DNA from: Candidatus Shapirobacteria bacterium
GTDB lineage: Bacteria; Patescibacteriota; Microgenomatia; UBA12405
Direction: 5' to 3'
Length of the DNA stretch: 64,000 bases
Assembly (NCBI GenBank): GCA_022837635.1
Contig: JALHFY010000001.1
Location: 23,562 to 87,561 of the forward strand
The notes under the pieces: generated by a model
The model's input: only the letters and a program-made list of their open reading frames with translations
The model's database searches: none
Told to the model about the DNA's origin: nothing
Made by a program: the position numbers and the translations under genes
Part shown: piece by piece, positions 7,077 to 55,700 of the stretch
Position numbering within the stretch: position 1 is the stretch's first letter
How the letters are laid out: each line of letters begins with the position of its first letter

Positions 7077-7943
7077 ATGCAGAAAGTGAGAATTGCTATT
7101 TTAATGGGTGGGGAAAGTAGTGAGAGAGAAGTGTCCTTAATGACAGGTGAAGAAATGTGGAGGAATTTAAACAGAAAAAAGTATGAGGTAATGAAAATTG
7201 TGTGGCCGGAAGAAAGAAATAAATTAGAAAAAATCAAGGTAAATATAGCGTTAATTGCTTTACACGGAAGGGGAGGTGAAGATGGAGTAATTCAAGGTTA
7301 TTTAGAAACTTTGGGAATTAAATATACAGGATCAGGAATATTAGCTTCAGCTATAGGTATGAACAAGAGGATGTTTAGGAAATTGGCAGAAAAAGAAGGT
7401 TTTTTGATGCCGCGAGAAGTGAAAAGTGTGCCGTGTGTCGTTAAACCCAGTAACGGTGGTTCGAGTATAGGAGTAATAATAGTGAAGAGACAAAGTGATT
7501 TAGCTAGAGCAATTAAAGCGGTAGAGCAATATGACAAAGAATGGTTGTGTGAAGAATATATTAAAGGAATCGAAGTATCTTGTGCTGTATTGGGAAATAA
7601 AGCTTTACCGGTGATTGAGATTGTACCGAAAAATATTTTTTTTGATTATGAAGCGAAATATATTTCTGGCATGGCAGAGGAAATATGTCCAGCGAGAATC
7701 AGTCAAAAGTTAAGTAGAAAAGTACAATCAGAAAGTCTTAGGCTGTGTCAAATTTTGGGAGTAAGAGGTTACGCTAGAGTGGATTTTATAATTAGCAGAG
7801 GGAAAGTTTATCTGCTAGAGATAAATACTTTACCCGGAATGACGGCTAATTCATTATTTCCTAAAGCAGCCAAAGTGGCCGGAATCAGTTATCCAAAATT
7901 ACTGGATCAGATAATTAACCTTACTTTTCAAGAGCCACTTTGA
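7077..7943 (+). CDS. ddl: D-alanine--D-alanine ligase (short form)
   Basis: ATP-grasp Ddl pattern (IAILMGG..SEREVSL at the N-terminus, EINTLPGMT at the C-terminus). Confidence 0.8.
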   Translation: MQKVRIAILMGGESSEREVSLMTGEEMWRNLNRKKYEVMKIVWPEERNKLEKIKVNIALIALHGRGGEDGVIQGYLETLGIKYTGSGILASAIGMNKRMFRKLAEKEGFLMPREVKSVPCVVKPSNGGSSIGVIIVKRQSDLARAIKAVEQYDKEWLCEEYIKGIEVSCAVLGNKALPVIEIVPKNIFFDYEAKYISGMAEEICPARISQKLSRKVQSESLRLCQILGVRGYARVDFIISRGKVYLLEINTLPGMTANSLFPKAAKVAGISYPKLLDQIINLTFQEPL

Positions 7944-13733: not shown

Positions 13734-14198
13734 ATGAATATGTCAATTGTGAGTAAGAAAGGAGATCGAGGGGAGACTTGGTATTTTGATAAAAGAGTGA
13801 GGAAGGATTCGGAGTTGATGGAAGCGGTAGGGAGTTTGGATGAATTGCAGGCGATTTGTGGGCTGGTTAAGTTAGAAAAAATACAAAAAGATTTATATGA
13901 AATAATGGCGAACTTAGACAAAGAAACTAGAAACAAGAAACTAGAAACCAGAATAAGGGAGATAGAGAAGGAGATAGAGATGATGGAGAAAAAGATAAAG
14001 GTGCCGAGGGAATTTGTGATTTTCAAAAAAGAGAAGGCGGTCAAGTTAAATTGGGTGAGAACGGTGGTGAGGAGAGCGGAGAGAATGATAATGAAACTAG
14101 AAACTAGAAACCAGAAACCAGATAAAGGTGTAATGATTTATTTAAATAGACTGTCCGATTTTATTTATTTAAGAGCTTTACAAGAAGAATTAAAATAA
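13734..14198 (+). CDS. PduO-type ATP:cob(I)alamin adenosyltransferase
   Basis: GDRGET...EAVGSLDEL at the N-terminus and VRTVVRRAERM...YLNRLSDFIYL at the C-terminus. The gene contains two CYAGAAA heptamer tracts. Confidence 0.65.
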   Translation: MNMSIVSKKGDRGETWYFDKRVRKDSELMEAVGSLDELQAICGLVKLEKIQKDLYEIMANLDKETRNKKLETRIREIEKEIEMMEKKIKVPREFVIFKKEKAVKLNWVRTVVRRAERMIMKLETRNQKPDKGVMIYLNRLSDFIYLRALQEELK

Positions 14199-14272
14199 AT
14201 TGGAATCAGGTGTAAGTCCTGAGCAGTGCCGCTACGGTAACAGCCCGAGCGAGAAAGCTTTCGAGCAAAAGT

Positions 14273-15118
14273 ATGAACAATAAAGAAAATTTTAAGCCTT
14301 ATTATGATATTAATCTACATAGTCATGAGGTGGTTGCCAGAGTGTTTCAAGAAGAAAGAAAAGGAGTGGGATTGGAATTGCGGATTGTTCATGCCGAAAA
14401 TTATGAAGAAAGTCGAATAAAGACTGATGATTGGGAATATAATCTCCATTCGGGAGCAGAAAAAAAAGCGACTCAAAATGTGTTTGAGTTATTGAGACAG
14501 GGTGCTCAAATGGTGATTTGGATTAGTCCACCCAGTGAAGTTTATGAAGAAGGGAGACTAAATGTAATGTTGAAAGGAGAGAAAGAGGGAGAATTGTTTT
14601 TCGATCCATACGGGTTACCATTGGATTTAAACAGAGAGGAGAGTTTGGAATTGGGACAGAGATTATGGAGAATGGAGGGTAAAAGTTTAGTTGCGCCATC
14701 AGATATAGAGATTTTACGGGAACAACCGATTGGTTTTTATCTGAGAGATAAAAATTGGTTGCAAAAGTGTCGGGAATTAATGCCAGAAATGGAATGGGCC
14801 TGGAAAACAATTGAGACGGGAAAGGTGGAGGAAAATATGAAAATAATTGCCGGTGAAGTGAAAGAAGCTAGACAAAAAGCTGGCGGAGATAATTATTTAT
14901 TTGAGGCGATAATGGCTAGAAATGGGTATTATTTGAACGTATCAGGAAGTCATGGAGGTTCGTGGTTGAGTCAGGAATTAGTCAGAAGTACACAGGGTAT
15001 AATCGCCTTTGATATAAATGGAAGAATAGAATATCGATTAGGAAGAACTGAGGGTTTACATTACTGCGAACGTTGTGGTTGTTGGTACAGTGGTGAAAAA
15101 TGTCCGGTCTGTAAATGA
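14273..15118 (+). CDS. Hypothetical protein with a C-terminal zinc ribbon (CERCGC...CPVC)
   Basis: No recognisable family. Confidence 0.4.
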   Translation: MNNKENFKPYYDINLHSHEVVARVFQEERKGVGLELRIVHAENYEESRIKTDDWEYNLHSGAEKKATQNVFELLRQGAQMVIWISPPSEVYEEGRLNVMLKGEKEGELFFDPYGLPLDLNREESLELGQRLWRMEGKSLVAPSDIEILREQPIGFYLRDKNWLQKCRELMPEMEWAWKTIETGKVEENMKIIAGEVKEARQKAGGDNYLFEAIMARNGYYLNVSGSHGGSWLSQELVRSTQGIIAFDINGRIEYRLGRTEGLHYCERCGCWYSGEKCPVCK

Positions 15119-24422: not shown

Positions 24423-25322
24423 TTATTTTAGAGTTTTCAAAAAGTCTTTGATGTCGGTGGCGTAGTCGTCGTTGAGCATGGCTACGGCAATGTTGGCTTT
24501 GAGCCAGCGAAGAGGATCACCGGTGGTCATCCAGTCGGATTTATCGTCGAGGCTCTCGGTGATAACGATGTCAGTTTCAGCCAGGGTATTGATAGAATCG
24601 GCATACCAAAGTTCATTGTCTTTAGAGAGACCTTGTTTAGTGAGAACGGGCCAGAGTTTTTCGGCGTCAACGATAGAACGACCGACTTGTCCAAAGAAAG
24701 AAGGAGCATCTTTAGCGGTGGGTTTTTCAACCATACCGGAGATGCGGTGAGGATATTTTTTATCAGGCATAAATTTAACGGCACCATAGCGGTGAATTTC
24801 GGCGGGACCAACATCTTTAACGGAAACATTGATGGCCGGAGTGTATTTTTCAAAAGTTTTAATCATCTTTTTCAGAAAACGACCGGTTTCTTTTTCGATA
24901 ATCAAGTCATCACCGAACATATAGACAAAAGGGTCGTTGCCGATAAAAGAACGGGCGGCCAACAGAGGTGAACCGTTACCATAGGGAAGGTGGGTGGGTT
25001 GGGGAATTAATTTAAAAGTTTTAAGACTTTGGTGAATTTTTTTGAGAGAGTCGAGGGCGTCCAGTTTGTTAACAGATTTAAGGTATTGTTCCCAATCTTG
25101 ACTGGGTTGAAAATAGCCACGAACGGTTTTTTCACCATGACGGTGGACAATACAAATTTCAGTAATACCGGCAGCAATGGCTTCTTCGACTAGATATTGA
25201 ATATTGGGTTTGTTTAAGACGGGAACTAATTCTTTGGCATAGGCTTTGACGGTGGGGAGAAAACGGGTGCCACGGCCGGCAGCAGCAATAACAGCTTTTT
25301 TGACTTGGATTTTTTTGGTCAT
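24423..25322 (-). CDS. galU: UTP--glucose-1-phosphate uridylyltransferase (GalU-like)
   Basis: Motif AVIAAAGRGTRFLP..KELVPV. Confidence 0.75.
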   Translation of the reverse strand: MTKKIQVKKAVIAAAGRGTRFLPTVKAYAKELVPVLNKPNIQYLVEEAIAAGITEICIVHRHGEKTVRGYFQPSQDWEQYLKSVNKLDALDSLKKIHQSLKTFKLIPQPTHLPYGNGSPLLAARSFIGNDPFVYMFGDDLIIEKETGRFLKKMIKTFEKYTPAINVSVKDVGPAEIHRYGAVKFMPDKKYPHRISGMVEKPTAKDAPSFFGQVGRSIVDAEKLWPVLTKQGLSKDNELWYADSINTLAETDIVITESLDDKSDWMTTGDPLRWLKANIAVAMLNDDYATDIKDFLKTLK

Positions 25323-25350
25323 ATAAAAGATTTTAACAGATATAAATTAC

Positions 25351-25938
25351 TTAGATTTCAATCCAGCTAAAGTAAGTAGTTTTGTCAGGTTGGGTTTCTT
25401 TATAGCCAGTTTTGACTATCTGAGAGGGATTTAATTGTGTTTCATAAAAGAAACCGCGGTATTCGCTATTGAGGCCGGGATAACTAAGAGATGTACGTTT
25501 TGTTTGTGTGGTGCTAGTTGGTTGAAGAAATAAATTGTCGTTTCTAATACCAAGTTCTTCAGCCAGAGCTCTAAGAGCAGCTTTTTCGGGTTGTTCCCCA
25601 ATGTGTATTTTTTCGCTAACAGCACCGGTGGCATAATGTCTGGTTCTAATTCTTTCTTGGAGAGTGTTTTCATTGAAGACCTGTTTTTCTTCGATGAGTT
25701 GGTGCTTTTTGCCATCAAAAAATCCCAAAACATTGATGTCAACAAAATCAACTCTTCTGGTGAGCTCATTATTTTGAGATGTGAGATAACTATCGTGATT
25801 TTTTAACTCTTCAAAGAGGTGTTGAGGGGTTTTTGCGTAACCTTTTCCCCATTCGTTAATAGATATGTTAAATTTTTTAAGGATAGAGATTAGTGAAGGG
25901 AGGTCGGCGGGGACAGTGATTAACTGAGCTTCAATCAT
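25351..25938 (-). CDS. Hypothetical protein with a Nudix-box-like motif. The start is the ATG at 25938, not the longer ORF in the track
   Basis: GEQPEKAALRALAEELGI approximates the GX5EX7REUXEEXGU Nudix box. The upstream ORF extension is a translation of tRNA repeats. Confidence 0.3.
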   Translation of the reverse strand: MIEAQLITVPADLPSLISILKKFNISINEWGKGYAKTPQHLFEELKNHDSYLTSQNNELTRRVDFVDINVLGFFDGKKHQLIEEKQVFNENTLQERIRTRHYATGAVSEKIHIGEQPEKAALRALAEELGIRNDNLFLQPTSTTQTKRTSLSYPGLNSEYRGFFYETQLNPSQIVKTGYKETQPDKTTYFSWIEI

Positions 25939-26085
25939 GTGGACCCAAGGGGACTCGAACCCCTGACCTGTCCGATGTCCATCGGACCGCGTTGACAAAT
26001 GGATAACATACTGTGAACCCAAGGGGACTCGAACCCCTGACCTGTCCGATGTCCATCGGACCGCGTTGACAAATGGATAACATAC
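25938..26085 (-). repeat. Two tandem 74-bp units, each made of the 3' 31 nt of tRNA-Ala fused to a 24-nt palindromic core
   Basis: Unit starts are at 25938 and 26012. The core tgacctgtccgatgtccatcggac lies at 25964-25987 and 26038-26061. Confidence 0.85.
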
Positions 26086-26087
26086 TG

Positions 26088-26160
26088 TGGACCCAAGGGG
26101 ACTCGAACCCCTGACCTTCCCCATGCCATGGGGACGCGCTACCAACTACGCTATGGGCCC
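26088..26160 (-). tRNA. tRNA-Ala (anticodon GGC)
   Basis: Cloverleaf GGGCCCA..TTGGCAT loop..GGTTCGAGTCC..TGGGTCCA. Confidence 0.85.
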
Positions 26161-26186
26161 AAAAGGTAGGTATATTTTAACAAAAC

Positions 26187-26260
26187 TGGCAGGCCCATGA
26201 GGATTCGAACCTCAAATAAAGGTTTTGGAGACCTTGGTGATACCATTTCACTATGGGCCT
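26187..26260 (-). tRNA. tRNA-Trp (anticodon CCA), with an encoded CCA 3' end
   Basis: AGGCCCATAGTGAAATGGTATCACCAAGGTCTCCAAAACCTT...GGTTCGAATCC. Confidence 0.85.
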
Positions 26261-26294
26261 GGATTATGTATTTTATCATTGATATATTACACCA

Positions 26295-26864
26295 ATGAGT
26301 CGAAGTAGGTTAATTTTAGGAATTACGGGAACAAATGGAGCGGGAAAGGGGACGGTGGTGGAGTATTTAGTTAAAAATCATGGTTTTGCACATTTTAGCG
26401 CCAGTGCTTTGATCAGTGAGGAAATTGAAAAAAGAAAAATGCCGGTAAACAGAGAATCAATGATAGAGGTGGGCAATGATTTGAGAGCCAAATTTGGAGC
26501 CGGTTTTATTGCTCAAGAATTGATTAAAAGAGCATCACAAACAGACAAGAATGCGATTGTGGAGAGTATTAGAACTGTAGGAGAAATAGAAAAACTGCGT
26601 GAAGTTGGGGGAATTTTACTGGCAGTTGATGCTTTGCAGAAATTAAGATACGAGAGAAATTTGAAACGGGGTAGTAATAAAGATAATGTGATTTGGGAGG
26701 AGTTTGTGGATCAAGAATTAAGAGAATCAGAGTCGACTGATCCGAATAAACAGAACTTGATAGCTTGCAGGGACAGAGCGGATTATCGATTGGAAAATAA
26801 TGGCAGTTTGGAAGATTTATATGAACAAATAGAAAAAATATTAAATATTATTAAAAACAAATGA
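26295..26864 (+). CDS. P-loop NTPase, putative nucleotide / nucleoside monophosphate kinase
   Basis: Walker A GITGTNGAGKGT. Confidence 0.45.
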   Translation: MSRSRLILGITGTNGAGKGTVVEYLVKNHGFAHFSASALISEEIEKRKMPVNRESMIEVGNDLRAKFGAGFIAQELIKRASQTDKNAIVESIRTVGEIEKLREVGGILLAVDALQKLRYERNLKRGSNKDNVIWEEFVDQELRESESTDPNKQNLIACRDRADYRLENNGSLEDLYEQIEKILNIIKNK

Positions 26865-30893: not shown

Positions 30894-30920
30894 AAAAGTT
30901 TCTTGAGAAAAATTTATATT

Positions 30921-30975
30921 GAGCCTGGAATGGAATTTGAATCCATGACCTGTCCGATGTCCATCGGACTGCTCG
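30921..30975 (-). repeat. Duplicated 3' half of tRNA-Thr (T-arm plus acceptor 3' strand) fused to the 24-nt palindromic core
   Basis: gagcctggaatggaatttgaatccatgacc is identical to the 3' end of the intact tRNA-Thr at 31245-31274. The core lies at 30946-30969. Confidence 0.85.
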
Positions 30976-30976
30976 A

Positions 30977-31243
30977 TTAAAATGATTTGGTTATTTTTTG
31001 ATTCGCAATAATTTGTTCAATTAAAGTTTTACTTTTTTGTCGTTTGAGCCAAAATTCAATTTTTCGAGCCATTGTTAATGTTGGATATTCCTGTTGAAAG
31101 ACGAGTTTAAGGGGTAAAGAAAAACTGGTGTAAGTGCTGCGTCCACTAAGATGTTCTTGAAGTCGGCGATTTAAATCAGCGGTGCTACCAATGTAAAAAC
31201 GAGAGTTTTTGAGAGATTGGAGAATATAAACGTAGGCAGACAT
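30977..31243 (-). CDS. GIY-YIG nuclease-domain protein. The start is the ATG at 31243
   Basis: MSAYVYILQSLKNSRFYIGSTADLNRRLQEH. The longer ORF in the track runs into the tRNA. Confidence 0.75.
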   Translation of the reverse strand: MSAYVYILQSLKNSRFYIGSTADLNRRLQEHLSGRSTYTSFSLPLKLVFQQEYPTLTMARKIEFWLKRQKSKTLIEQIIANQKITKSF

Positions 31244-31244
31244 T

Positions 31245-31318
31245 GAGCCTGGAATGGAATTTGAATCCATGACCTTCCCCTTACCAAGGGGATGCTCTAC
31301 CAACTGAGCTATCCAGGC
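31245..31318 (-). tRNA. tRNA-Thr (anticodon GGT)
   Basis: GCCTGGATAGCTCAGTTGGTAGAGCATCCCCTTGGTAAGGGGAAGGTCATGGATTCAAATTCCAT... Confidence 0.85.
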
Positions 31319-31320
31319 AA

Positions 31321-31437
31321 ATTGTTAATCCATGACCTGTCCGATGTCCATCGGACTGCTCTCAACTGAGCCATGAGTCAAAGTTAATCCATGACCTGTC
31401 CGATGTCCATCGGACTGCTCTCGCCTCTAGGCTGGCT
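31321..31437 (-). repeat. Two tandem pseudo-tRNA units (about 59 nt each). Each has a D-arm-like segment, then the palindromic core in place of the anticodon arm, then a truncated T-arm
   Basis: Both units share the exact 41-mer gttaatccatgacctgtccgatgtccatcggactgctctc. The cores lie at 31334-31356 and 31393-31415. Confidence 0.8.
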
Positions 31438-47981: not shown

Positions 47982-48296
47982 ATGACGAAAGAACAACCAA
48001 CTCCAGGACAAGGAGAATTGTTTCCGGGTTTACGAGAAGCATCAATAAAGCGATTTGATGATATAGATTTTGTGAAACCTAATGGGAAACCTAAAGGATG
48101 GGAGCCGAGAGCAAAGAGAGAGGCAAGATCGGCGGCGATGATGCCAATATCGAGAGATACAACAACAGGTAAAGTTAATGACAATGGAGAAAGTGGACCA
48201 AAACCAGAGGCGACAATGCCGGTGCCAAGAAATAACAATGAGTCAGATCAAGAAAGTCGTCTAGATCGTTATACGCAGTGGATAAACGATCATTAG
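47982..48296 (+). CDS. Hypothetical protein predicted to be disordered
   Basis: A 104-aa ORF. Confidence 0.35.
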   Translation: MTKEQPTPGQGELFPGLREASIKRFDDIDFVKPNGKPKGWEPRAKREARSAAMMPISRDTTTGKVNDNGESGPKPEATMPVPRNNNESDQESRLDRYTQWINDH

Positions 48297-48384
48297 CAGT
48301 GATATAATCTTTTGACTATTACCACGATCCCCGCAAAGCTTGGTGGTAGATCATCCTTCTCCCGTAAACGGGATACGGATTGAC

Positions 48385-48404
48385 AAAGGCGCTCGCCTTT
48401 ATTT
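48385..48404 (+). terminator. Rho-independent terminator aaaggcg-ctc-gccttt followed by a T-run
   Basis: Read directly. Confidence 0.5.
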
Positions 48405-48423
48405 AACAATTAGTGTTTTTCTT

Positions 48424-48498
48424 TCCCCCTTAGCTCAGTGGTAGAGCGCTCGCCTGTTAAGCGATTGGTCCTAAGTTCGAATCTTAGAGGGGGAGCCA
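48424..48498 (+). tRNA. tRNA-Asn (anticodon GTT), with an encoded CCA
   Basis: TCCCCCTTAGCTCAGTGGTAGAGC...CTGTTAA loop...GGTCCTAAGTTCGAATCTTAGAGGGGGAGCCA. Confidence 0.8.
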
Positions 48499-49959
48499 AC
48501 TTTGACGAGAGGCGTAAAAAGCTATCTTGTCAAACGGTTTTATCCAGTCATATCGGGCTTTTTTGCCCTTTAGCTCTAAGTTCTGAAGTGCCATCTTCAA
48601 AAGTAGCCGTTTTTCGTGGGCTTCAGAACTTTCAAAGACTTTTCCAGCGTTTTCAGCCAGCTTTAGCAGGTAAGATGAGGTTACATAGTATTCCTCGTCG
48701 GCAAATTGTAGCTTCTCAATTTTTTTATTGATTGTCTTCTGTTTTGCCCGATACTCTTTTCGTTTTTTCTCATAGTAGCTCTCAGTAATACTACCGTCTA
48801 TTTTGTCTTCCCAAGCCCGCTCAATGCGGTTCTCGTATTTCTTATACTCGGACTGATAGCGGTTGAGTAGACTTTGGTGAAACTCTGATTTGTCTTTGTG
48901 CGAGCTTTTAAGCGAATTGGCAATATCCTCAACAACATCAGGGGGCATTTGGAGCTTGTCAAACACGCTTACAAACTGTTTGGTTAAGTCGTCCTCTGTC
49001 AGCCACTCAGCCCCGTGTTTACCGTTGTATTGTGTGCAGTGGTAGTAGTGATAGACATTACCGCTTTTCTTTATCTTACGCTCAGGCGTAATCATACAAC
49101 CGCAGTCGGCACATCTGATTAAGCCCCTGTAAGGAAAAGCTAGACCCGCATACTTAAAGCGTTTTTTATTAAACCCTGCTTTTATATCCTGCACTTTGTC
49201 AAAAAGTTCCTCGTCAATCACTCTATCGTAGTTGTGCGGGTATTCTTGTCCGTCATAGAGCATTGTCCCGCAGTAAAAGGGGTTTTTGAGGATAAAATCA
49301 ATTTTGCCTTTGGAAAAGTCCAAGCCAAACACTTCTTTAACCTTATTTCTTACCTCAAGCATTGAGTAACTGCCTGTGGAATACCATTGATACATTTTCT
49401 CAACGATTTCTGCTTCTGGCTCGTCAACACCTATCCACTTTGAGCCGTCATCTCTGGTTATATTTTTGTAACCGTAGGGGGCTTTGCCAGGATACTCGTT
49501 TTTGCTTATTTTGAATTTGGCTGTATTGATAGCGTCTTCTTTGAGGCGGTTAAGATATTGCTTGGCAAGAAAAACCTTTAAGTCCCAATCCTGAATATCC
49601 CTGCCTACGCTGTCTTTGTTGATAACGAGGTGGTCATAAACAAAGTGAATTTCTTTGCCGTAATCAAGCCTTAGCTCGTCTATTTTTACGGCATCTCGGT
49701 AATTTCTGGTTATGCGGTCAACTCGGTAAGAGATAATAGCTTTGATGTCCTCATTTTGCTTTACAAAGTCAATCATCTCGTTAAACTTCTTTCTGATTTT
49801 ATAGTCGGCACTTTCGCTAAAAACAAATTCTCGGACTACCTCAAAATCTCTTTTGGTTGCGTAATCCCTTAGTTCGGGAAGTTGAATATCTTTAAGAGAT
49901 AATCCTTCTTTTTCCTGCCTGAGCGTTGATACTCTGGCTAATATAACTGCTTTGGTCAT
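48484..49959 (-). mobile_element. Large serine recombinase (integrase). Its 3' end overlaps tRNA-Asn by 15 nt
   Basis: Resolvase N-domain AVILARVSTLRQ..., recombinase domain, and zinc ribbon CADCGC...YHYYHC. Confidence 0.8.
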
Positions 49960-49962
49960 AAT

Positions 49963-50850
49963 TTATTTCTTCCTAAACTGCTTCCAATTTTTATCAACTC
50001 TTGTTCTATGGACTTTTTCAAGTCTATTCTGTTGCTCCAAAATTCTGGCATACGAACCTCTTATTAAGGCTTTATTGCCTGTTTTTTCAAAAAAATTAAA
50101 TAGCTCAAACCAATGGTTAAAATCTAACTGGCTCGGTTTTGAGTTAGTAGAAAAGCCTACTGTTCTTGCTAAATTAAGTATCGTTTGTTTCCCGAAGACA
50201 TCGGATAATCCTTCAATCACATTAGGCTTGAACTGATTGAAGGTGTAAACAATAAAGTCTTGATATTGACTTTTTGCCTCGTCTTTAATCAAAGGATTTT
50301 TTCTCTTGTTAATTTTTAGTAATACCGTCTCTACTTGCGGTTTTGGGGAAAAATCATCTCTGTTGAATTTATGGGAAATTTCCAATTCAAACCACGGTCT
50401 CAATAAAATAGCCATCTGACTATTTTTACTATCGTGGGGTTTGCCTATAAACTTTTTAGCGGCTTCGTTCTGAACAATAAGAAACGCATCGTCAGGTGGT
50501 TTTGGTGCTTGTGTTAATTTTTTTATAACATCTGAGGTGATATTGAAGGGTATATTAGAAAAAACTTTATAGGGATAACTTGGCAGGGAATAAGTTAAAA
50601 AATTGCCGTGTATTAAGTCTAAGGATTTATTACCCGTAAATTTTCGTGCTAATATCCTAAATAAGTTTTCGTCTATTTCAAAAGCAACTACCTTCCTACT
50701 TCTTTTTAGCAATTCTTCTGTGATAATTCCTTGACCTGCACCAATTTCATAAACAACATCATTAGTTGTTATAGCTGATTTTGCTATCAGATTGGCTATC
50801 AGAGCCTTATCTTTCAGAAAGTTTTGTGAGTAGGCAATTCTTTTTCTCAT
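49963..50850 (-). CDS. Erm-family rRNA adenine N6-methyltransferase
   Basis: YSQNFL, VYEIGAGQGIIT, FEID, YKVFSNIPFNITSDVIKKL, FSPKPQVETVLLKI. These correspond block by block to Erm(B)-type methylases. Confidence 0.65.
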   Translation of the reverse strand: MRKRIAYSQNFLKDKALIANLIAKSAITTNDVVYEIGAGQGIITEELLKRSRKVVAFEIDENLFRILARKFTGNKSLDLIHGNFLTYSLPSYPYKVFSNIPFNITSDVIKKLTQAPKPPDDAFLIVQNEAAKKFIGKPHDSKNSQMAILLRPWFELEISHKFNRDDFSPKPQVETVLLKINKRKNPLIKDEAKSQYQDFIVYTFNQFKPNVIEGLSDVFGKQTILNLARTVGFSTNSKPSQLDFNHWFELFNFFEKTGNKALIRGSYARILEQQNRLEKVHRTRVDKNWKQFRKK

Positions 50851-51050
50851 TCTGTTTTTCTGGGTTTCTTCATTTGCATAAACTCTTTTAAGTCGGTCTT
50901 TTCAATTCGGTATTGCTTGCCCGCTTTGTGAGCCTTGAGTTTGTCGTCCTGTATCCAACGATAGACTGTGAGATAAACTACCTTGAGCATTTTTGCCACT
51001 TCCTCTATGGTGTAGTATTTTTCTTCTGTCATATTAGTTATATTTAACAT
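50847..51050 (-). CDS. Excisionase / HTH_17-like DNA-binding protein
   Basis: YYTIEEVAKMLKVVYLTVYRWIQDDKLKAHKAGKQYRI. Confidence 0.55.
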   Translation of the reverse strand: MLNITNMTEEKYYTIEEVAKMLKVVYLTVYRWIQDDKLKAHKAGKQYRIEKTDLKEFMQMKKPRKTE

Positions 51051-52206
51051 TATTTAACATTTTGTCTTGAATTGCAAGTAGTTTTAACGGCTCAAACTTG
51101 TTTACCTGCTCTTTAAGTAGAGAGAATACGCTTGGTTCGTCGGTTTTGGTAAGGGCTTTCATCTCTTTATTTAAGCTATACCACGCAGAACTGCCGTAAT
51201 GTTTGGTCATTTCCCTAAACTCTCTTACCCCAATCTCGTCAAGTAAAACCCGCAGTCCTAGCATTTTGAGGGCTTGTGTGAGCTTGGTTGTGTGGTTAGC
51301 TCGTATAAAGCCTGAAAAGAACTTTTTGGGGCTATCATATTGGTAAGTGAGTAATGGTGGGTATGCTTCCTCAATCTCGCTGATGTAGTGAAGTAAGACC
51401 TTTTTGGCTGTGTCTTGGCTAAATATGTTGGTAAAAGTCGGTTCTACTTCCTTGCCTATTTTTTTGAGGATTTGGTTGATTTTTTGCCGTCTATTTAGTC
51501 TTATCTCAACTCGCAACACCTCAAGCGGTTTCTGCTTGGTCAGCACATCAAATAAATTAAGCTGTAAGGCATTATCTTCTTCTTCAGCCCGTTTCTCGCT
51601 AATCTTAGCTTGCTCTAAGTCTTTGATTTTGTCGTAAAAAACTATCTCAAACGAGTTAGCCCGATACTTGAAGCTGTGCCCTTCGTTCCTAAAGTCTGTC
51701 CTGTTAGTGTCCAGCCGTTTATTGATGTTGAGCTTGTTGAGTTGAGAGAAGTAGGTATAGGGTGTAGTGTAGTCCGTCAAGGCTATATTTTTGGAGTAGT
51801 GGACTGAGGAAACGGGAGCGTCAATTAAGTGTTGCTCAAGGATATAAACTCCCATTTCTCGTAGTATGATTTTCAGCTTTTGGATAACTGCGGGAAAATC
51901 AGCCTCGGTTAGCTCGTCAAAGTTATTGCCGTATAGAAGTTTGGGGATTGAAAACTCAATTTTCAGAGTTATCTCAAAGTTTCGCTCTCGGTTTATTCGT
52001 TTGGTAACGGTCAATCGGGGTTTGTATACGCCTTGCTTTAACTCGTTAGGAGTTGGGTTCTGTTTGCAGGTAATGTTAGACCTGCCCCCCAAGCGATAAT
52101 AGCCAATAGAGGCGTCATAAAGCCCTTTGGTTGACGGACTAAATTTGTCGTGGTCAAGTATTGTAAACATACCTGTTTTAAGTGTTAAAACGATTGTGTC
52201 TATCAT
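51034..52206 (-). CDS. Putative replication-initiation (Rep_trans-like) protein of a mobile element
   Basis: A 390-aa protein lying between xis and spoVG in a compact minus-strand module. The family assignment is tentative. Confidence 0.25.
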   Translation of the reverse strand: MIDTIVLTLKTGMFTILDHDKFSPSTKGLYDASIGYYRLGGRSNITCKQNPTPNELKQGVYKPRLTVTKRINRERNFEITLKIEFSIPKLLYGNNFDELTEADFPAVIQKLKIILREMGVYILEQHLIDAPVSSVHYSKNIALTDYTTPYTYFSQLNKLNINKRLDTNRTDFRNEGHSFKYRANSFEIVFYDKIKDLEQAKISEKRAEEEDNALQLNLFDVLTKQKPLEVLRVEIRLNRRQKINQILKKIGKEVEPTFTNIFSQDTAKKVLLHYISEIEEAYPPLLTYQYDSPKKFFSGFIRANHTTKLTQALKMLGLRVLLDEIGVREFREMTKHYGSSAWYSLNKEMKALTKTDEPSVFSLLKEQVNKFEPLKLLAIQDKMLNNVKYN

Positions 52207-52471
52207 AGTTGTTCATTACTTCTTCAAACTGCTTTACAACTTCACTCTCTATTAACTGGGCGGTTTCTCTGTTTATTGGGTAAAAAATGTTGAGGTTTCT
52301 GTCGGCTATCTTTTTCGTGGGATAAACGAGCCTGTAACCGCCTTGTGGTCGGGTCATAATTCCTATTGAGCCAAGATAGAGGTTTTTATCCCAAACAAAG
52401 CTGGCAAAGGCTACTAAGCCGTTTTGCGGTTTTATGGGTATGATTTGAACTTCACTTAGTCGGTTTATCAT
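52178..52471 (-). CDS. SpoVG-family protein
   Basis: GLVAFASFVWDKNLYLGSIGIM...YRLVYPTK...YPINRETAQLIESEVVKQFEEV. Confidence 0.6.
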   Translation of the reverse strand: MINRLSEVQIIPIKPQNGLVAFASFVWDKNLYLGSIGIMTRPQGGYRLVYPTKKIADRNLNIFYPINRETAQLIESEVVKQFEEVMNNYDRHNRFNT

Positions 52472-52706
52472 AGAATTTCGTTACATTTTCCCTGCGGTCA
52501 ATTTCTATCAAGAGGGCAAAGAAATCGGTAAGCCGTTTCTTTTCTTCGGGCGTCAAAACTAAACCCTTTGTCTGGGGTTTGTTTTTTTCAAGCTGACTGA
52601 CTTTGCCGTTTTCCATCAAGCAAAGTTTAGGAAACGCCAGGAGAATTGTCGTTGTGGTAGGAAGGAGTAGGTAACCTTAGGTATAAAAGGGGACAAAAAG
52701 GGACGA

Positions 52707-53822
52707 TTAGTGAGGAATAACGAGTTTACCCCCGCCTTTAACAAGTTTAATAAGCGGTTTTTTCATTTCTTCTAAGTCCTTCTTTGTTATCGGGTTTCTG
52801 AACTCAATGGCATTTTTTGATACGCTAAAAAAGACTTCTTTTGTGTCGCCTTCAAAGCCAAGATTTTCAACTATCTTATGTAGAGATTTTGTCAATTTTC
52901 CACCCATAGCCTTCTCAAGTTCTTCTCTGGTTACTCTTTTATTTGGGTGTTCATACAGGAATGAAAAAACAAGGTCGTTTTCACTGTTAAAGTCTGGTTT
53001 ACTAATTTGTGCATTGTTCATTAACACCTGCCTCTGCTTGGTATAGATAATTTGATACAACGGCTCGTCTTTCTCGTCGGTTTTCTTGGTTGCTGCTTGC
53101 TTAGGAATGTCTTTAACCTTTTTTTCATCTATTTTGGTAGCTTTCTGTTTCCGCTTTTCAAACTCTTGTTTTATCTTTGCGTAGAAGTCATCAAAATTTG
53201 CTAGGTTTACCTTTACCCCAATAGAGCCGTAACCAAAAGTGTCGTCATTGTCATATTTTGCTTCAAAAACCGCTTTCTCTTTAATGAGATACTGAACCCC
53301 TTCCCAACGGTATTGCTGGTATGTTTTTCTTGTCCCGATAGTGTCGTAAGGAAATAGCTCTAAGAACCTACCAATATAGGGGTAAGGGAATGAGGGTATT
53401 CTAACAAGGTTTGTTCTAGCTAACTGCAGTTGCTTATCAATGTCTGAACACACATCAAGGGCTTTAAGTAGGTTAAGCCAATCTATATTTTCGGGTTTGG
53501 ACTTCTGCCTCATTCGGTATCGGATAAGCCAGTCGTCAAATGTGTCCAAAATTTTAATTAGGAAGTATTCTATCTTGCCTTCTACGGCTTCCATACTTGC
53601 GGTAATACCTGTTTTTAGCTCTGTTGGTATCTCCTCTACAGTTAAGACTTTTTCGTCGTCTTGAAGCTGTAACAAGAGTTCGTGAACTTCTTGAGGGATA
53701 ATCTTTTTTGTTAATTCCGTTTGTTTAGTAACAAAAATCTTTGCGGATTGACCAGAGCGGGTGCGTTTCTTGGCTTCCACAAGTTCACTGATAAGTAAAT
53801 TTAGTTTTTCTTCGTAAGTCAT
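52707..53822 (-). CDS. Hypothetical protein
   Basis: A 371-aa ORF. Confidence 0.4.
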   Translation of the reverse strand: MTYEEKLNLLISELVEAKKRTRSGQSAKIFVTKQTELTKKIIPQEVHELLLQLQDDEKVLTVEEIPTELKTGITASMEAVEGKIEYFLIKILDTFDDWLIRYRMRQKSKPENIDWLNLLKALDVCSDIDKQLQLARTNLVRIPSFPYPYIGRFLELFPYDTIGTRKTYQQYRWEGVQYLIKEKAVFEAKYDNDDTFGYGSIGVKVNLANFDDFYAKIKQEFEKRKQKATKIDEKKVKDIPKQAATKKTDEKDEPLYQIIYTKQRQVLMNNAQISKPDFNSENDLVFSFLYEHPNKRVTREELEKAMGGKLTKSLHKIVENLGFEGDTKEVFFSVSKNAIEFRNPITKKDLEEMKKPLIKLVKGGGKLVIPH

Positions 53823-53894
53823 AGGTCATTACATCTTCAACTTTGTTTATCATATTTTATCAATTTTTGCTAAAATTTATAATTAGATTAGGCT

Positions 53895-55700
53895 ATGTTG
53901 AAAAAAATATCCTTAAAGTTTACTAGGGACAAATTCCTGAGCTGGGTTATCAAAATCTCAGTTATTGTCTGGCTAACTTGTATCCTCGGCGTCTTTGCGG
54001 TGATTGGTTATGTTGTTGGTATTAGAAAAGAATTGTTTGATAAAGCACCCGATGCGTTTATGTTTTTGCTTCTTGGCTTAATCCTATTAGGATGTTTAGC
54101 TTTTTTGGTTGGAGTAGTAAGTTTTACTGCACAACTTATAACCAAAAGGTCTCAAAAGAAGCAAAATGTTTTTATCTTTTTAATAAGGTTGTTTTTTATT
54201 CTTGCCATCTTACCTTTCTACCTATTGGTTTATATTATTAGACCCCTTGAGATTGTTAGGAGATTGAGACATCTTGGATTCAAGGAGTTGCTAAAATCAC
54301 TAAACCCTAAGTTTTTATTGAGTAAGGCTGTTGCCCTAATCTTGGTTGGAGCTATAGTCTTCCCCATTTGGATTGGCGGGTATGCGACTGTCGGTGCTTT
54401 AGTCGCTGGCCAACTCGGTTATATAACAGAGGATATAAACATTGTGGGAACGGGTTCAATGTATCCAACTTGGGAAAAGGGAAGCAAGGGCAAGAGCAAT
54501 AAAGAATTAGCAAAAGAGATAATTTCTACAGCTGGATTTTTGCCCTATCCTAACGGAATTGTCATAGGAGGGAAAAGGTATTTTGGACACACATTGGGAA
54601 GGGGCGACATAATTACTTGGGAAAATGATGCAACAAGGGAGCTAACGAGCAGAGATGGAGCTGAACCTGCAGGGTTACTAAAGAGAATTATCGGTTTGCC
54701 AGGAGATAAGATAGAACTCAGAGACGGCATTGTTTATCTCAATGAGGAGCAACAAAGGGAACCATACATAGCTAAGCCACGCTCAACATTTGGTGAAAAA
54801 TTCTTAAAAGAGTGCCAAGTAATTACTGTCCCTCAAGATGCGGTGTTTGCGATGGGAGACAATAGAAAAGGCAGTTCTGATTCAAGAGAAATTGGCTTTG
54901 CCCCAATTAAGGATATTACTCGTGTTCTTCCCTTTGAGAAACAAAAGGGCAAATTAGATAAAAACTGGCACGACACAACCAACGACTTAGATGACACGGC
55001 AAAACCAACAGTAGATAGAAATAGGTTTGTTGAGCTTCTCAATGAAAAACGCAAAGAAAATGGGGCGACCCCAGTAAAATATGAACCAAAGTTAGACATA
55101 TCGGCAAAGGCACGGGGTGAATTGCTCTTAAAACACAATTCAATTCAAGAACAGGCTTCTTATGATGTTGTTTCAAATGCAATGTCAAAGGCTGGTTATT
55201 GGAATAGCTATGTTTGGGAATGGTCGTTAGAGGGATACTATACAGCTGATGAGTTGATTGAAGATTATCTTGAAAGAGATTCAACTGATGCAAAGAATGT
55301 ATGGTTTGACAAAAAATTTGACGACATTGGTATTGGAGAAGTTCAAGGGAACCTGAATGGGTGCCCCACACAGCTTATTATTGTTCACGCAGCTGGATAT
55401 GTTCCACCCAACTATAAAAAGGAGGATATTGAATCTTGGAAAACAAGTCTTTCCCGATTAAGAGAGATACAACCAAGTTGGGCAAATCTTAAAAACAATT
55501 CCAATTTTTATCAAAACAATAAGAGTGATGTTGATAGAATCAACGAAATCATTTCTATAAGAATTGCCAACATTTCAACTATCGTAGCTAAAATGGAAGC
55601 TAACCAGTGGTTGGGTGCTACCGAACAAAGAATGATAGAACAAGACAAACCCTTATATGATGAGCAAGAAACAATAGCGACAAGATTAAATAGTCGCTAG
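53895..55700 (+). CDS. Three-part fusion protein: polytopic membrane domain, signal peptidase I (S26) and a CAP/SCP domain
   Basis: S26 boxes GTGSMYPTW and VFAMGDNRKGSSDSR. The C-terminal segment resembles the two CAP paralogues downstream. Confidence 0.6.
   Translation: MLKKISLKFTRDKFLSWVIKISVIVWLTCILGVFAVIGYVVGIRKELFDKAPDAFMFLLLGLILLGCLAFLVGVVSFTAQLITKRSQKKQNVFIFLIRLFFILAILPFYLLVYIIRPLEIVRRLRHLGFKELLKSLNPKFLLSKAVALILVGAIVFPIWIGGYATVGALVAGQLGYITEDINIVGTGSMYPTWEKGSKGKSNKELAKEIISTAGFLPYPNGIVIGGKRYFGHTLGRGDIITWENDATRELTSRDGAEPAGLLKRIIGLPGDKIELRDGIVYLNEEQQREPYIAKPRSTFGEKFLKECQVITVPQDAVFAMGDNRKGSSDSREIGFAPIKDITRVLPFEKQKGKLDKNWHDTTNDLDDTAKPTVDRNRFVELLNEKRKENGATPVKYEPKLDISAKARGELLLKHNSIQEQASYDVVSNAMSKAGYWNSYVWEWSLEGYYTADELIEDYLERDSTDAKNVWFDKKFDDIGIGEVQGNLNGCPTQLIIVHAAGYVPPNYKKEDIESWKTSLSRLREIQPSWANLKNNSNFYQNNKSDVDRINEIISIRIANISTIVAKMEANQWLGATEQRMIEQDKPLYDEQETIATRLNSR

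What the first reader, a model, noticed from the sequence alone, without database searches (positions are those of the whole stretch)
25938..26160. Tandem 74-bp array of tRNA-Ala 3' halves, each fused to a palindromic hairpin, abutting the intact tRNA-Ala
On the minus strand the intact tRNA-Ala(GGC) is followed immediately by two near-identical 74-bp units (starts at 25938 and 26012). Each unit reproduces the last about 31 nt of the tRNA, that is the variable loop AGGTC, the T-arm and the acceptor 3' strand. Each unit is joined precisely at the anticodon-stem / variable-loop boundary to an 18-nt palindrome GTCCGATGGACATCGGAC (7-bp stem, GGAC loop), which takes the place of the 17-nt anticodon arm. 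The start codon of the downstream CDS sits exactly at the array edge. The 264-aa ORF in the supplied track is an artefact of translating these repeats, visible as the repeated VRVPLGPQYVIHLSTRSDGHRTGQGFESPWVH. The architecture looks like serial integration / excision scars of an element that targets the tRNA 3' end, or like a tRNA-derived miniature repeat. I do not recognise it as a described element.
Basis: seen in the sequence. Interest (0 to 1): 0.8.

Follow-up and report, generated by a model that had tools for sequence, protein, structure and literature searches.

The report
Hairpin-tagged tRNA fragments from a selfish nuclease cassette
The repeated tRNA-Ala tail pieces are most likely the leftover, locally duplicated edge of a small and apparently undescribed selfish DNA cassette, common in ultra-small (CPR/Patescibacteria) bacteria, that replaces the anticodon arm of a tRNA gene copy with a conserved 18-base hairpin while an intact tRNA copy remains beside it.

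Summary
tRNA-Ala(GGC) at 26087-26160 (minus strand) is followed by two 74-nt units. Each unit is a 25-nt spacer, the 18-nt palindrome GTCCGATGGACATCGGAC (PAL) and 31 nt of the tRNA 3' part.

The array is not unique. The same PAL occurs three more times in the window, around tRNA-Thr(GGT), flanking an 88-aa Slx1-like GIY-YIG nuclease gene. An exact-PAL scan of GTDB genomes found 104 loci, mostly Patescibacteria. In about 38 of them PAL sits in a tRNA gene copy, standing in for exactly the 17-nt anticodon arm (47 of 52 comparisons). Sixteen of those 38 have a GIY-YIG ORF of one clade alongside, against 0 of 66 other loci.

The usual layout is [tRNA 5' half]-PAL-{GIY-YIG + intact tRNA}-PAL-[tRNA 3' half]. 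Relatives of the window have clean empty sites at the Thr locus. Five assemblies of a close relative carry one Ala unit instead of two. Nuclease homologues found by protein search carry different palindromes with compensatory stem changes.

Best reading: the Ala array is the ORF-less, tandemly duplicated right junction of such a cassette. How the cassette moves is inferred, not shown. I found no description of it in the literature searched.

The parts
26087..26160 (-). Intact tRNA-Ala(GGC). It is the functional copy next to the array.
   Evidence: ARAGORN. Rfam tRNA 64.7 bits. 74/74 identical to the tRNA-Ala that sits inside a complete cassette in L085.
26062..26086 (-). Spacer of the proximal unit (25 nt). 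Its last 4 nt, cgcg, match the D-stem 3' strand plus nt 26.
   Evidence: Weak similarity to the first codons of a cassette GIY-YIG ORF in L021 (score 20 against 14.3 +/- 2.1; 8 of 300 shuffles reach it).
26044..26061 (.). PAL copy: GTCCGATGGACATCGGAC in tRNA sense, 7-bp stem and GGAC loop. It replaces the 17-nt anticodon arm.
26013..26043 (-). Copy of the tRNA-Ala 3' part (variable loop, T arm, acceptor 3' strand), with one mismatch.
25988..26012 (-). Spacer of the distal unit, identical to the proximal spacer.
25970..25987 (.). PAL copy.
25939..25969 (-). Outermost tRNA-Ala 3' part. It directly abuts the NUDIX ATG (25938-25936). Inferred to be the displaced original 3' end of the resident gene.
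   Evidence: Analogy with L088, where the outermost 3' half alone keeps a different tail and terminator.
25351..25938 (-). NUDIX hydrolase CDS (195 aa). A neighbour, not part of the element. It marks the old downstream flank.
   Evidence: Pfam NUDIX. Homologues P0001 and P0002.
30920..30951 (-). Outer tRNA-Thr(GGT) 3' half, identical to the 3' part of the intact tRNA-Thr.
   Evidence: It occupies the position next to tRNA-Ser that the single tRNA-Thr has in empty-site relatives.
30952..30969 (.). PAL copy (right end of the Thr cassette), preceded on the tRNA-sense strand by gagca, the D-stem 3' strand.
30977..31243 (-). GIY-YIG nuclease gene (88 aa), a minimal Slx1/UPF0213-type domain.
   Evidence: Pfam PF01541, E 7e-13. 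PDB 1zg2, E 1e-7. AF2 pLDDT 89.6, with best folds UPF0213 and Slx1. 10 synonymous against 5 non-synonymous differences to L098.
31245..31318 (-). Intact tRNA-Thr(GGT) inside the cassette.
   Evidence: One nt different from the single tRNA-Thr of empty-site relative L112.
31324..31415 (-). Two 59-nt left-end units. Each is a D-arm piece (gagagca), then PAL (31339-31356 and 31398-31415), then the variable loop and the start of the T stem (aggtcatggattaac).
   Evidence: L098, at about 95% nt identity, has three such units.
31416..31436 (-). Degenerate outer tRNA 5' half (gccagcctagaggcgagagca), at the place where the tRNA-Thr 5' end lies in empty-site relatives.

Best explanation
The 74-nt array is the ORF-less, tandemly duplicated right-hand junction of a small selfish cassette that lives in tRNA genes of Patescibacteria.

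A complete cassette looks like this: [tRNA 5' half up to nt 26]-PAL-{about 90-aa Slx1-like GIY-YIG nuclease gene + an intact tRNA, in either order}-PAL-[tRNA from nt 44 to the 3' end]. One tRNA gene copy has lost exactly its anticodon arm to a palindromic hairpin and is split by the cargo. The intact tRNA in the cargo keeps the cell supplied.

Proposed history of the Ala locus, inferred from anatomy and relatives:
1. Such a cassette occupied tRNA-Ala(GGC), as it still does in the Shapirobacteria contig L085.
2. Its left side was lost by recombination between the outer 5' half and the inner tRNA.
3. The nuclease ORF was deleted, leaving a 25-nt spacer.
4. The remaining [3' part-spacer-PAL] unit was duplicated by slippage or unequal exchange between the 31-nt direct repeats.

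Proposed way the family works, inferred:
- The nuclease has no DNA-binding domain and resembles Slx1, which cuts branched DNA. It would act on the hairpin or cruciform formed by the palindrome, and possibly by the anticodon-arm repeat of a tRNA gene.
- The break is repaired by copying the cassette, in a homing-like gene conversion that uses the conserved D-arm and T-arm sequences as flanks.
- The palindrome-bearing copy is no longer a tRNA.

Shown: the anatomy, the exact 17-nt replacement, the nuclease association, the empty sites, the copy-number variation, and the covariation of the palindrome stem. Not shown: cleavage, the actual transfer step, and the order of events at the Ala locus.
For: 1. 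The same 18-mer occurs five times in the window, always fused to fragments of tRNA-Ala or tRNA-Thr and always in tRNA orientation.
2. The genome scan found 104 loci. My estimate of the chance expectation is about 17. Most loci are from Patescibacteria of many classes.
3. In 47 of 52 comparisons with the neighbouring intact tRNA, PAL stands in for exactly the 17-nt anticodon stem-loop. This holds for Asp, Arg, Ile, Val, Ala, Pro and Thr.
4. The architecture recurs with two PALs enclosing a GIY-YIG ORF and an intact tRNA (L013, L017, L021, L050, L055, L063, L065, L085, L088).
5. The outer halves have complementary acceptor strands even where they belong to a different tRNA from the inner one (L063; also L054 and L065).
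6. 16 of about 38 tRNA-context loci have a GIY-YIG ORF of one clade within 150 nt, against 0 of 66 other loci. That clade is 36-61% identical internally and 20-38% identical to other GIY-YIGs.
7. Empty sites: relatives with SufC 82%, 70% and 69% identical keep the same gene order with a single intact tRNA-Thr(GGT), no PAL and no nuclease.
8. Copy number varies. There is one Ala unit in L105-L109 against two in the window, three Thr left units in L098 against two, and twelve units in L088.
9. Nuclease homologues found by protein search sit at tRNA-Thr with other palindromes: GTCCGGTGGACACCGGAC, GTCCCGCCGCTGCGGGAC and GTCCGAAATTTCGGAC. The outer GTCC...GGAC is constant and the inner stem changes by compensation.
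10. The loop flips between GGAC and GTCC within a single array and within a single locus, which indicates hairpin formation in DNA.
11. The nuclease looks active and selected. Y6, Y17, R27, H31 and E63 are invariant, the substitution pattern indicates purifying selection, and the fold is Slx1/UPF0213-like.
12. L085 has the identical tRNA-Ala followed by an intact nuclease ORF, PAL and the 3' half.
Against: - The Ala locus itself has no nuclease gene and no left-hand PAL. Its history is reconstructed by analogy. The similarity of the spacer to an ORF start is weak.
- No empty site was recovered for the Ala locus.
- A classical homing endonuclease should not leave a cleavable intact tRNA inside its own cassette, and an 88-aa protein has no obvious way to read sequence. 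The homing step is therefore uncertain.
- Sequence right next to PAL is specific to the local tRNA (for example attacg|PAL|aggttc in L088). This is hard to obtain by plain homologous conversion from a foreign donor and hints at a structure-guided cut.
- PAL also occurs at the tips of ordinary intergenic hairpins with no nuclease gene nearby, so the palindrome may move on its own.
- The PAL scan required an exact 18-mer, so the apparent invariance of PAL across loci is partly built in.
Confidence: 0.65

Rival explanations
1. The palindrome is itself the mobile unit: a miniature REP- or MITE-like hairpin element that lodges in existing stem-loops, including tRNA arms and terminator tips. The GIY-YIG gene would be either its trans-acting mobiliser (by analogy with a RAYT) or merely a frequent neighbour. 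The Ala units would then be non-autonomous copies, never a decayed cassette.
For: - PAL sits at the tip or in the loop of longer intergenic hairpins in many Patescibacteria loci with no nuclease gene nearby.
- Other small palindromes interrupt the D loops and T loops of tRNA pseudo-copies: CCTGCCTGCCGGCAGGCAGG, TCCCGATGTGTATCGGGA and cccgatacatcggg.
- ORF-less one-sided forms are common.
Against: - In tRNA genes the whole arm is replaced, not the loop filled.
- PAL copies always come with duplicated tRNA parts and an intact copy alongside.
- The nuclease is adjacent in 16 of 38 tRNA-context loci and 0 of 66 others.
- The palindrome changes together with the nuclease lineage.
- No terminal inverted repeats plus target duplication, and no HUH transposase, were seen.
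Confidence: 0.17
2. The units are functional RNA modules: tRNA-like decoys, processing signals, or a repeat-RNA antitoxin in the manner of type III toxin-antitoxin systems. They would be transcribed with tRNA-Trp and tRNA-Ala, and would control the downstream NUDIX mRNA or buffer the nuclease.
For: - No promoter-like or terminator-like site separates the tRNAs, the array and NUDIX.
- Tandem repeat arrays next to a nuclease gene (L088, L098 and the window Thr locus) recall ToxI-type arrays.
- The stem of the palindrome is kept by compensatory change, which would also fit an RNA hairpin.
Against: - The unit length is not conserved: 74, 94, 59 and 58 nt.
- Copy number varies from 1 to 12 between close relatives.
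- The Ala array has no nuclease gene beside it.
- Most loci have just two palindromes around the cargo rather than an array.
- The loop flips orientation freely, which changes the RNA loop.
- No Rfam family matches.
Confidence: 0.08
3. The units are serial integration and excision scars (attL/attR remnants) of an integrase-type island that targets the 3' end of tRNA-Ala.
For: Partial 3' copies of a tRNA downstream of the intact gene are the classic footprint of island integration (PMC9897764).
Against: - No integrase or other recombinase lies within 5 kb on either side.
- Only 43 nt lie between the repeats.
- The copy is preceded by D-arm nucleotides and a palindrome that exactly fills the anticodon-arm slot.
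- The same palindrome is fused to 5' halves upstream of tRNA-Thr.
- Both units share one spacer, and relatives have one unit.
Confidence: 0.04
4. The second unit is an assembly duplication artefact.
For: - Five short-read assemblies of a close relative show one unit.
- Contigs of relatives often break inside such arrays: L119 and L120, L008/L050, L024/L039, and an N run in L121.
Against: - The two units differ at one base.
- The relatives also differ from the window in the spacer (agCatg against agTatg), so they are a different strain.
- Short-read collapse tends to remove copies rather than add them.
- A 12-unit array sits in a complete MAG chromosome.
Confidence: 0.04

Closest known systems
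Phage T4 SegB, a free-standing GIY-YIG homing endonuclease in a tRNA gene cluster
   Same: - A GIY-YIG nuclease gene is embedded among tRNA genes.
- SegB recognises a site that includes the conserved T-arm motif of tRNA genes.
- It drives inheritance of itself together with the neighbouring tRNA genes (PMC2330249).
   Different: - SegB is a long protein, about 220 aa by my recollection, with a recognition region. The protein here is 88 aa, catalytic domain only, and is nearer to Slx1 than to I-TevI in fold.
- No palindrome, no anticodon-arm replacement and no split tRNA copy are mentioned in the SegB abstract (the only part read).
Mobile endonuclease ORFs of fungal mitochondria that create gene hybrids, and the double-hairpin elements of Allomyces
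   Same: - The element brings a replacement for the part of the target gene it displaces.
- The displaced resident part is left as a downstream pseudo-fragment.
- Small mobile hairpin elements occur in the same genomes (cited in PMC3787672). The link between a hairpin and the ORF boundary is from my memory of Paquin et al. 1994 and 2000.
   Different: - The targets there are protein-coding genes in organelles.
- Here the target is a tRNA gene in free-living or episymbiotic bacteria.
- Here the junction is a defined structural element (nt 27-43), and the hairpin replaces an RNA-gene arm.
Integrase-mediated tRNA att duplications (genomic islands, prophages)
   Same: A complete tRNA gene plus a partial 3' copy in direct orientation (PMC9897764).
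   Different: - No recombinase is present.
- The insert is tens to hundreds of nt, not kilobases.
- 5' halves are duplicated as well.
- The junction carries a conserved palindrome in place of the anticodon arm.
REP elements with RAYT transposases, and other miniature palindromic repeats
   Same: A short conserved palindrome is scattered in the genome and linked to one small nuclease-type gene family.
   Different: - The enzyme is a GIY-YIG, not an HUH Y1 transposase.
- Copies are tied to tRNA gene structure.
- Only 5 copies occur in 64 kb, none of them free-standing in this window.
Slx1 structure-specific endonuclease and bacterial UPF0213 proteins
   Same: - Best sequence and fold matches: 1zg2, and 6seh at rmsd 2.2-2.7 A over 72 columns.
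- It is a minimal GIY-YIG domain without the C-terminal Asn motif (PMC1564403).
   Different: - Slx1 works with Slx4 in eukaryotic repair.
- No function in a mobile cassette or at tRNA genes is described for the bacterial proteins, as far as I could find.

Membership tests
Integrase-generated tRNA att scars (genomic island footprint) | A tyrosine or serine recombinase gene next to the tRNA or its partial copy | tested here: not met
   Pfam on all larger ORFs from 21.4 to 30.8 kb finds glycosyltransferase, NTP transferase, NUDIX, kinase-like AAA, deaminase, GNAT, class II synthetase-like, radical SAM and GDSL. Two ORFs have no hits. The same genes are found in L105.
Integrase-generated tRNA att scars (genomic island footprint) | Direct repeats of the tRNA 3' part bracket a kilobase-scale island, and only 3' parts are duplicated | tested here: not met
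   43 nt lie between the repeats. At the Thr locus, 5' halves and D-arm pieces are duplicated too.
Free-standing GIY-YIG homing endonuclease cassette | A GIY-YIG ORF with an intact catalytic core inside the element | tested here: met
   Met for the family and for the Thr locus of the window. The Ala array itself has no ORF.
Free-standing GIY-YIG homing endonuclease cassette | Presence/absence polymorphism at an orthologous site, including clean empty sites | tested here: met
   L112-L116 have a single intact tRNA-Thr(GGT) in the same gene order, with no PAL and no nuclease. No empty site was found for the Ala locus.
Free-standing GIY-YIG homing endonuclease cassette | Sequence-specific cleavage of the element-free allele, followed by copying of the element | not testable with these tools
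   Needs enzyme assays or crosses.
Free-standing GIY-YIG homing endonuclease cassette | A nuclease domain joined to a DNA-binding region that reads a long asymmetric site (I-TevI or SegB type) | tested here: not met
   The protein is 88 aa, a single domain. The fold is nearer to Slx1 and UPF0213 than to I-TevI.
REP/RAYT or MITE-type palindromic repeats | A cognate HUH (Y1) transposase, or terminal inverted repeats with a target-site duplication | tested here: not met
   No such gene lies near any inspected locus. The units have no terminal inverted repeats apart from the palindrome itself.
REP/RAYT or MITE-type palindromic repeats | The same short palindrome dispersed at many unrelated intergenic sites | tested here: inconclusive
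   All 5 copies in the window are tRNA-linked. In other genomes PAL also caps ordinary hairpins.
Split, permuted or intron-containing tRNA genes | The separated pieces together encode a complete tRNA, including its anticodon arm | tested here: not met
   The outer halves lack nt 27-43 altogether, and an intact tRNA lies beside them.
Type III toxin-antitoxin repeat RNA arrays | A tandem repeat array immediately upstream of its toxin gene, with conserved unit length | tested here: not met
   The Ala array is followed by NUDIX, not a nuclease. Unit lengths are 58-94 nt and copy number is 1-12.

The most novel reading that the evidence does not exclude
The family would be a new kind of DNA mobility guided by nucleic-acid shape rather than sequence.

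- On single-stranded or extruded DNA, a tRNA gene folds like a cloverleaf.
- The two palindromes at the cassette ends pair with each other (16 of 18 bp) and imitate a long anticodon stem.
- The Slx1-like nuclease cuts at the base of that arm, at 26/27 and 43/44.
- The whole cassette is then swapped for the 17-nt anticodon hairpin of a target tRNA gene and sealed by host ligase.

Because the cassette destroys one tRNA copy and carries the only working one, precise loss by recombination between the two palindromes would leave a dead gene. The tRNA would be held hostage as an addiction device. Smaller palindromes in D and T loops would be products of the same arm-targeting chemistry.
Probability: 0.18. 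Interest if true: 0.9.

Novelty: new variant of a known kind. Interest (0 to 1): 0.72.

Why it matters
If the reading is right, the tiny genomes of Patescibacteria carry a widespread selfish cassette that treats a structural module of tRNA genes (the anticodon arm) as its landing site and brings its own tRNA. Four consequences follow:

1. It explains stray tRNA fragments, tandem arrays and contig breaks next to tRNA genes in these genomes. It also warns annotators about false long ORFs and false tRNA calls.
2. It gives the large, function-less family of minimal bacterial GIY-YIG (UPF0213/Slx1-like) proteins a concrete and testable substrate: an 18-bp palindrome or a tRNA-gene cruciform.
3. It offers a route by which tRNA genes, or chimeric tRNAs, could be exchanged between lineages.
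4. A small nuclease that cuts at defined hairpin bases could be a useful tool.

Tried and rejected
- **Rfam.** An E-value search around the array and a gathering-threshold search of the whole window found only the true tRNAs and sub-threshold tRNA-like hits. Rfam on 20 loci where PAL is not in a tRNA found that PAL lies in no known RNA gene.
- **Promoter and terminator scan** of 25300-26700 found nothing.
- **Viral contigs** scanned for PAL gave 0 hits, so there is no sign of a phage vector.
- **Metagenome scan.** I spent the only one on the tRNA-end/NUDIX-start junction, hoping for empty sites at the Ala locus. It returned one chance hit in an unrelated high-GC contig.
- **More distant NUDIX homologue** (L110) has no tRNA upstream and is uninformative.
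- **Literature.** Six searches, including the literal palindrome sequence, found no description. The recent paper on group I introns in Patescibacteria tRNA genes does not mention it.
- **Fixed-length target-site duplication containing PAL.** I considered and dropped this idea. The inner flanks in L017 and L065 match the inner tRNA or neither tRNA, not the outer halves.
- **PAL as a mutated tRNA-Val(GAC) anticodon arm.** Considered, but it rests on a few shared bases only.
- **Origin of the spacer as an ORF remnant** is supported only weakly.
- **DNA fold of the array** shows that the two PALs can pair with each other instead of forming separate hairpins. This is suggestive, not evidence.
Full report
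**1. The observation**

The window carries tRNA-Trp(CCA) at 26187-26260 and tRNA-Ala(GGC) at 26087-26160, both on the minus strand. Downstream of tRNA-Ala, TRF reports a 74-nt period with 2.4 copies and 98% matches.

Read on the minus strand, each unit has three parts:
- a 25-nt spacer, agtatgttatccatttgtcaacgcg;
- the 18-nt palindrome GTCCGATGGACATCGGAC, called PAL below (7-bp stem, 4-nt loop);
- 31 nt identical to the tRNA from the variable loop AGGTC to the end of the acceptor strand, with one mismatch in the proximal unit.

The outermost copy runs straight into the ATG of a NUDIX gene (25938-25936). The 264-aa ORF is a read-through artefact.

**2. The array is not alone**

PAL occurs three more times in the window, at 30952-30969, 31339-31356 and 31398-31415. 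None of 100 shuffles of the window gave a match. These copies surround tRNA-Thr(GGT) at 31245-31318 (minus strand). Read in tRNA sense, the locus is:

[degenerate tRNA 5' half]-PAL-aggtcatggattaac-[D-arm piece]-PAL-aggtcatggattaac-[intact tRNA-Thr]-[88-aa ORF]-gagca-PAL-[complete tRNA-Thr 3' half]

The ORF is a GIY-YIG nuclease:
- Pfam E 7e-13.
- Best solved relatives are the UPF0213 protein BH0048 and Slx1.
- A confident AF2 model (pLDDT 89.6) matches UPF0213 and Slx1 better than I-TevI.
- Against the 95%-identical relative L098 it shows 10 synonymous and 5 non-synonymous differences.
- The catalytic residues are invariant among homologues.

**3. A family**

An exact-match scan of one genome per GTDB species found PAL in 104 stretches. 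My arithmetic gives about 17 expected by chance. A handful of hits in conserved coding regions of Actinobacteria, Deltaproteobacteria and Nitrospira fit that expectation. Most of the rest are Patescibacteria of many classes, plus some MAGs labelled Gammaproteobacteria.

- In about 38 loci PAL sits inside a tRNA gene copy.
- I compared the six bases on each side of PAL with the neighbouring intact tRNA. In 47 of 52 informative cases PAL stands in for exactly 17 nt, the anticodon stem-loop. This holds for tRNAs for Asp, Arg, Ile, Val, Ala, Pro and Thr.
- 16 of the 38 tRNA-context loci have, within 150 nt, a GIY-YIG ORF of one clade. None of the 66 other loci has one.

**4. Architecture**

Loci with two PALs show an outer tRNA gene split at nt 26/27 and 43/44. 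Between the two PALs lie the nuclease gene and an intact tRNA, in either order.

The outer halves can form an acceptor stem with each other. Sometimes they are identical to the inner tRNA (L013, L055, L050). Sometimes they belong to another tRNA (L063; also L054, L065 and the 5' half in L017 and L021). So the outer gene was a real tRNA gene and the inner tRNA travels with the cargo.

ORF-less forms are common:
- [tRNA]-spacer-PAL-[3' half], as at the window's Ala locus (L005, L009, L042, L046, L054, L070, L101).
- The mirror image upstream of a tRNA (L003, L010, L012, L040, L061, L076, L103).
- A complete PAL-tRNA next to an intact tRNA-Ala (L036).

These forms are what recombination between the direct repeats would leave. 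The relevant repeats are an outer half with the matching half of the inner tRNA, or PAL with PAL.

**5. Evidence for gain, loss and instability**

- *Empty sites.* Using SufC, the gene next to the Thr locus, I fetched relatives at 82%, 70% and 69% protein identity. They keep the gene order radical SAM, L33, GDSL, tRNA-Ser, tRNA-Thr(GGT), sufC. They have one intact tRNA-Thr, no PAL and no nuclease. The upstream flank of L112 runs directly into the tRNA at the point where the window has the degenerate outer 5' half. In the window, 464 nt (30952-31415) lie between the two outer halves.
- *Thr array.* L098, at about 95% nucleotide identity, has three left-end units where the window has two.
- *Ala locus.* Five independent assemblies of a strain with a 98%-identical NUDIX protein have the same Trp-Ala-unit-NUDIX arrangement with one unit.
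- *Complete Ala cassette.* L085, another Shapirobacteria contig with no other nucleotide similarity to the window, has the identical tRNA-Ala, followed by an intact nuclease ORF, PAL and a decaying 3' half, with a PAL-tagged 5' half upstream.
- *Large array.* L088, in a complete MAG chromosome, has twelve near-identical 94-nt units of the same kind. Only the outermost 3' half has a different tail and terminator, as expected for the displaced resident end.

**6. The palindrome is under selection and forms hairpins**

The PAL scan was biased towards exact copies, so I also looked at nuclease homologues found by protein search. Those at 74%, 60% and 61% identity all lie at tRNA-Thr(GGT) with the same layout, but the anticodon arm of the flanking pseudo-halves is replaced by other palindromes:
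- GTCCGGT-GGAC/GTCC-ACCGGAC
- GTCCCGC-CGCT-GCGGGAC
- GTCCGAAATTTCGGAC

The outer GTCC...GGAC is constant. The inner stem changes by compensatory pairs, and the palindrome differs with the nuclease lineage.

The 4-nt loop is found in both orientations, even within one array (L088) and within one locus (L121). From general knowledge, such flips are the signature of template switching at DNA hairpins.

**7. Interpretation of the finding**

The Ala array is best read as a reduced cassette. The nuclease ORF and the left end are gone. The remaining junction unit [3' part-spacer-PAL] has been duplicated in this strain.

The shared spacer and the one-unit relatives argue for local duplication rather than repeated integration. 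The resemblance of the spacer to the first codons of a cassette ORF is only suggestive.

The start codon "at the array edge" is simply the old arrangement, in which tRNA-Ala abutted NUDIX.

**8. Mechanism**

Nothing here shows cleavage or transfer. The precedents are:
- T4 SegB, a GIY-YIG homing endonuclease that recognises the T-arm motif of tRNA genes and spreads with neighbouring tRNA genes.
- Mitochondrial endonuclease ORFs that bring a replacement for the gene part they displace.

Against a simple homing model:
- The protein is only a catalytic domain of the Slx1 type.
- The cassette keeps an intact, presumably cleavable tRNA.
- The junctions are exact even where the bases next to PAL are specific to the local tRNA.

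I therefore favour a nuclease that acts on the branched or hairpin DNA formed by the palindrome, and perhaps by the anticodon-arm repeat, with repair copying the cassette. I rate the specific structure-guided arm-swap version separately, in the novel-case field.

**9. Rivals**

- *Integrase scars* are contradicted by the gene content and by the anatomy.
- *A free palindromic repeat with an incidental nuclease* is partly compatible with the data, because PAL also caps ordinary hairpins. It does not explain the duplicated tRNA parts or the association statistics.
- *A functional RNA array* is not excluded, but it fits poorly with the variable unit length, copy number and loop orientation.
- *An assembly artefact* is unlikely.

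**10. Novelty**

Six literature searches, including the literal sequence, and two topical papers gave no description. The library lacks most subscription journals, so this is not proof.

I class the finding as a new variant of a known kind: a selfish nuclease cassette associated with tRNA genes. Its unusual and well-defined feature is a conserved palindrome that replaces exactly the anticodon arm.

Noticed in passing
window 1-64000, with an exception at 48001-56000: Extreme strand asymmetry. The plus strand has G 16210 against C 8639, a GC skew of about +0.30 to +0.39 per 8 kb. The skew drops to about +0.05 in 48-56 kb. A similar disparity was reported for a Microgenomates genome (title of PMC7143001).
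   Followed up: partly
window 14156-14276 (+): A cobalamin riboswitch aptamer just above the Rfam gathering score (35.9 bits against 31.5).
   Followed up: no
L007 about 5100; L101 about 4590; L103 about 3700; L074 about 3560: A second, unrelated palindrome (CCTGCCTGCCGGCAGGCAGG; in L074 the related variant cctgcctgtcgacagacagg) interrupts the D loop or T arm of tRNA pseudo-copies in several Patescibacteria.
   Followed up: no
L085 1546-1575; L121-L124 outer halves; L127 1850-2100: The outer, non-functional tRNA halves often carry further hairpin inserts in the D loop and T loop, for example TCCCGATGTGTATCGGGA and cccgatacatcggg. In L127 a tRNA-Ile(TAT) pseudo-copy has three such inserts yet keeps its anticodon arm.
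   Followed up: partly
L117 and L118, upstream of tRNA-Thr(GGT), about 2815-2920: These otherwise empty sites still hold a tRNA 5'-half remnant with a D-loop hairpin insert but no palindrome in the anticodon position. This may be the trace of a lost cassette.
   Followed up: no
L005 about 7395-7500; L010 about 330-345: A 12-nt motif (ccccgccacct) lies directly upstream of the intact tRNA in L005 and L010. In L005 its reverse complement follows the tRNA, so there it flanks the tRNA as an inverted repeat. This may be another junction type.
   Followed up: no
L126 1430-1830 (Chitinophagales MAG): A 51%-identical GIY-YIG ORF outside Patescibacteria is flanked by direct repeats of a tRNA-3'-like fragment with a hairpin in the T loop, next to a phage-type integrase gene.
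   Followed up: no
L119 and L120 starts; L008/L050; L024/L039; N run in L121: Short-read contigs and scaffolds repeatedly end or gap inside these palindrome arrays, so the elements fragment MAG assemblies at tRNA loci.
   Followed up: partly
window 25925-26090 (-): Folded as single-stranded DNA, the two palindromes of the array pair with each other rather than forming two separate hairpins (minimum free energy -26.9 kcal/mol, z -2.3).
   Followed up: no
L060, L063, L036, L003, L061, L076 (records titled uncultured Gammaproteobacteria): Complete cassettes and one-sided forms with the identical 18-mer occur in MAGs labelled Gammaproteobacteria. Either the element crosses phyla or these bins are mislabelled. 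I did not check this.
   Followed up: no
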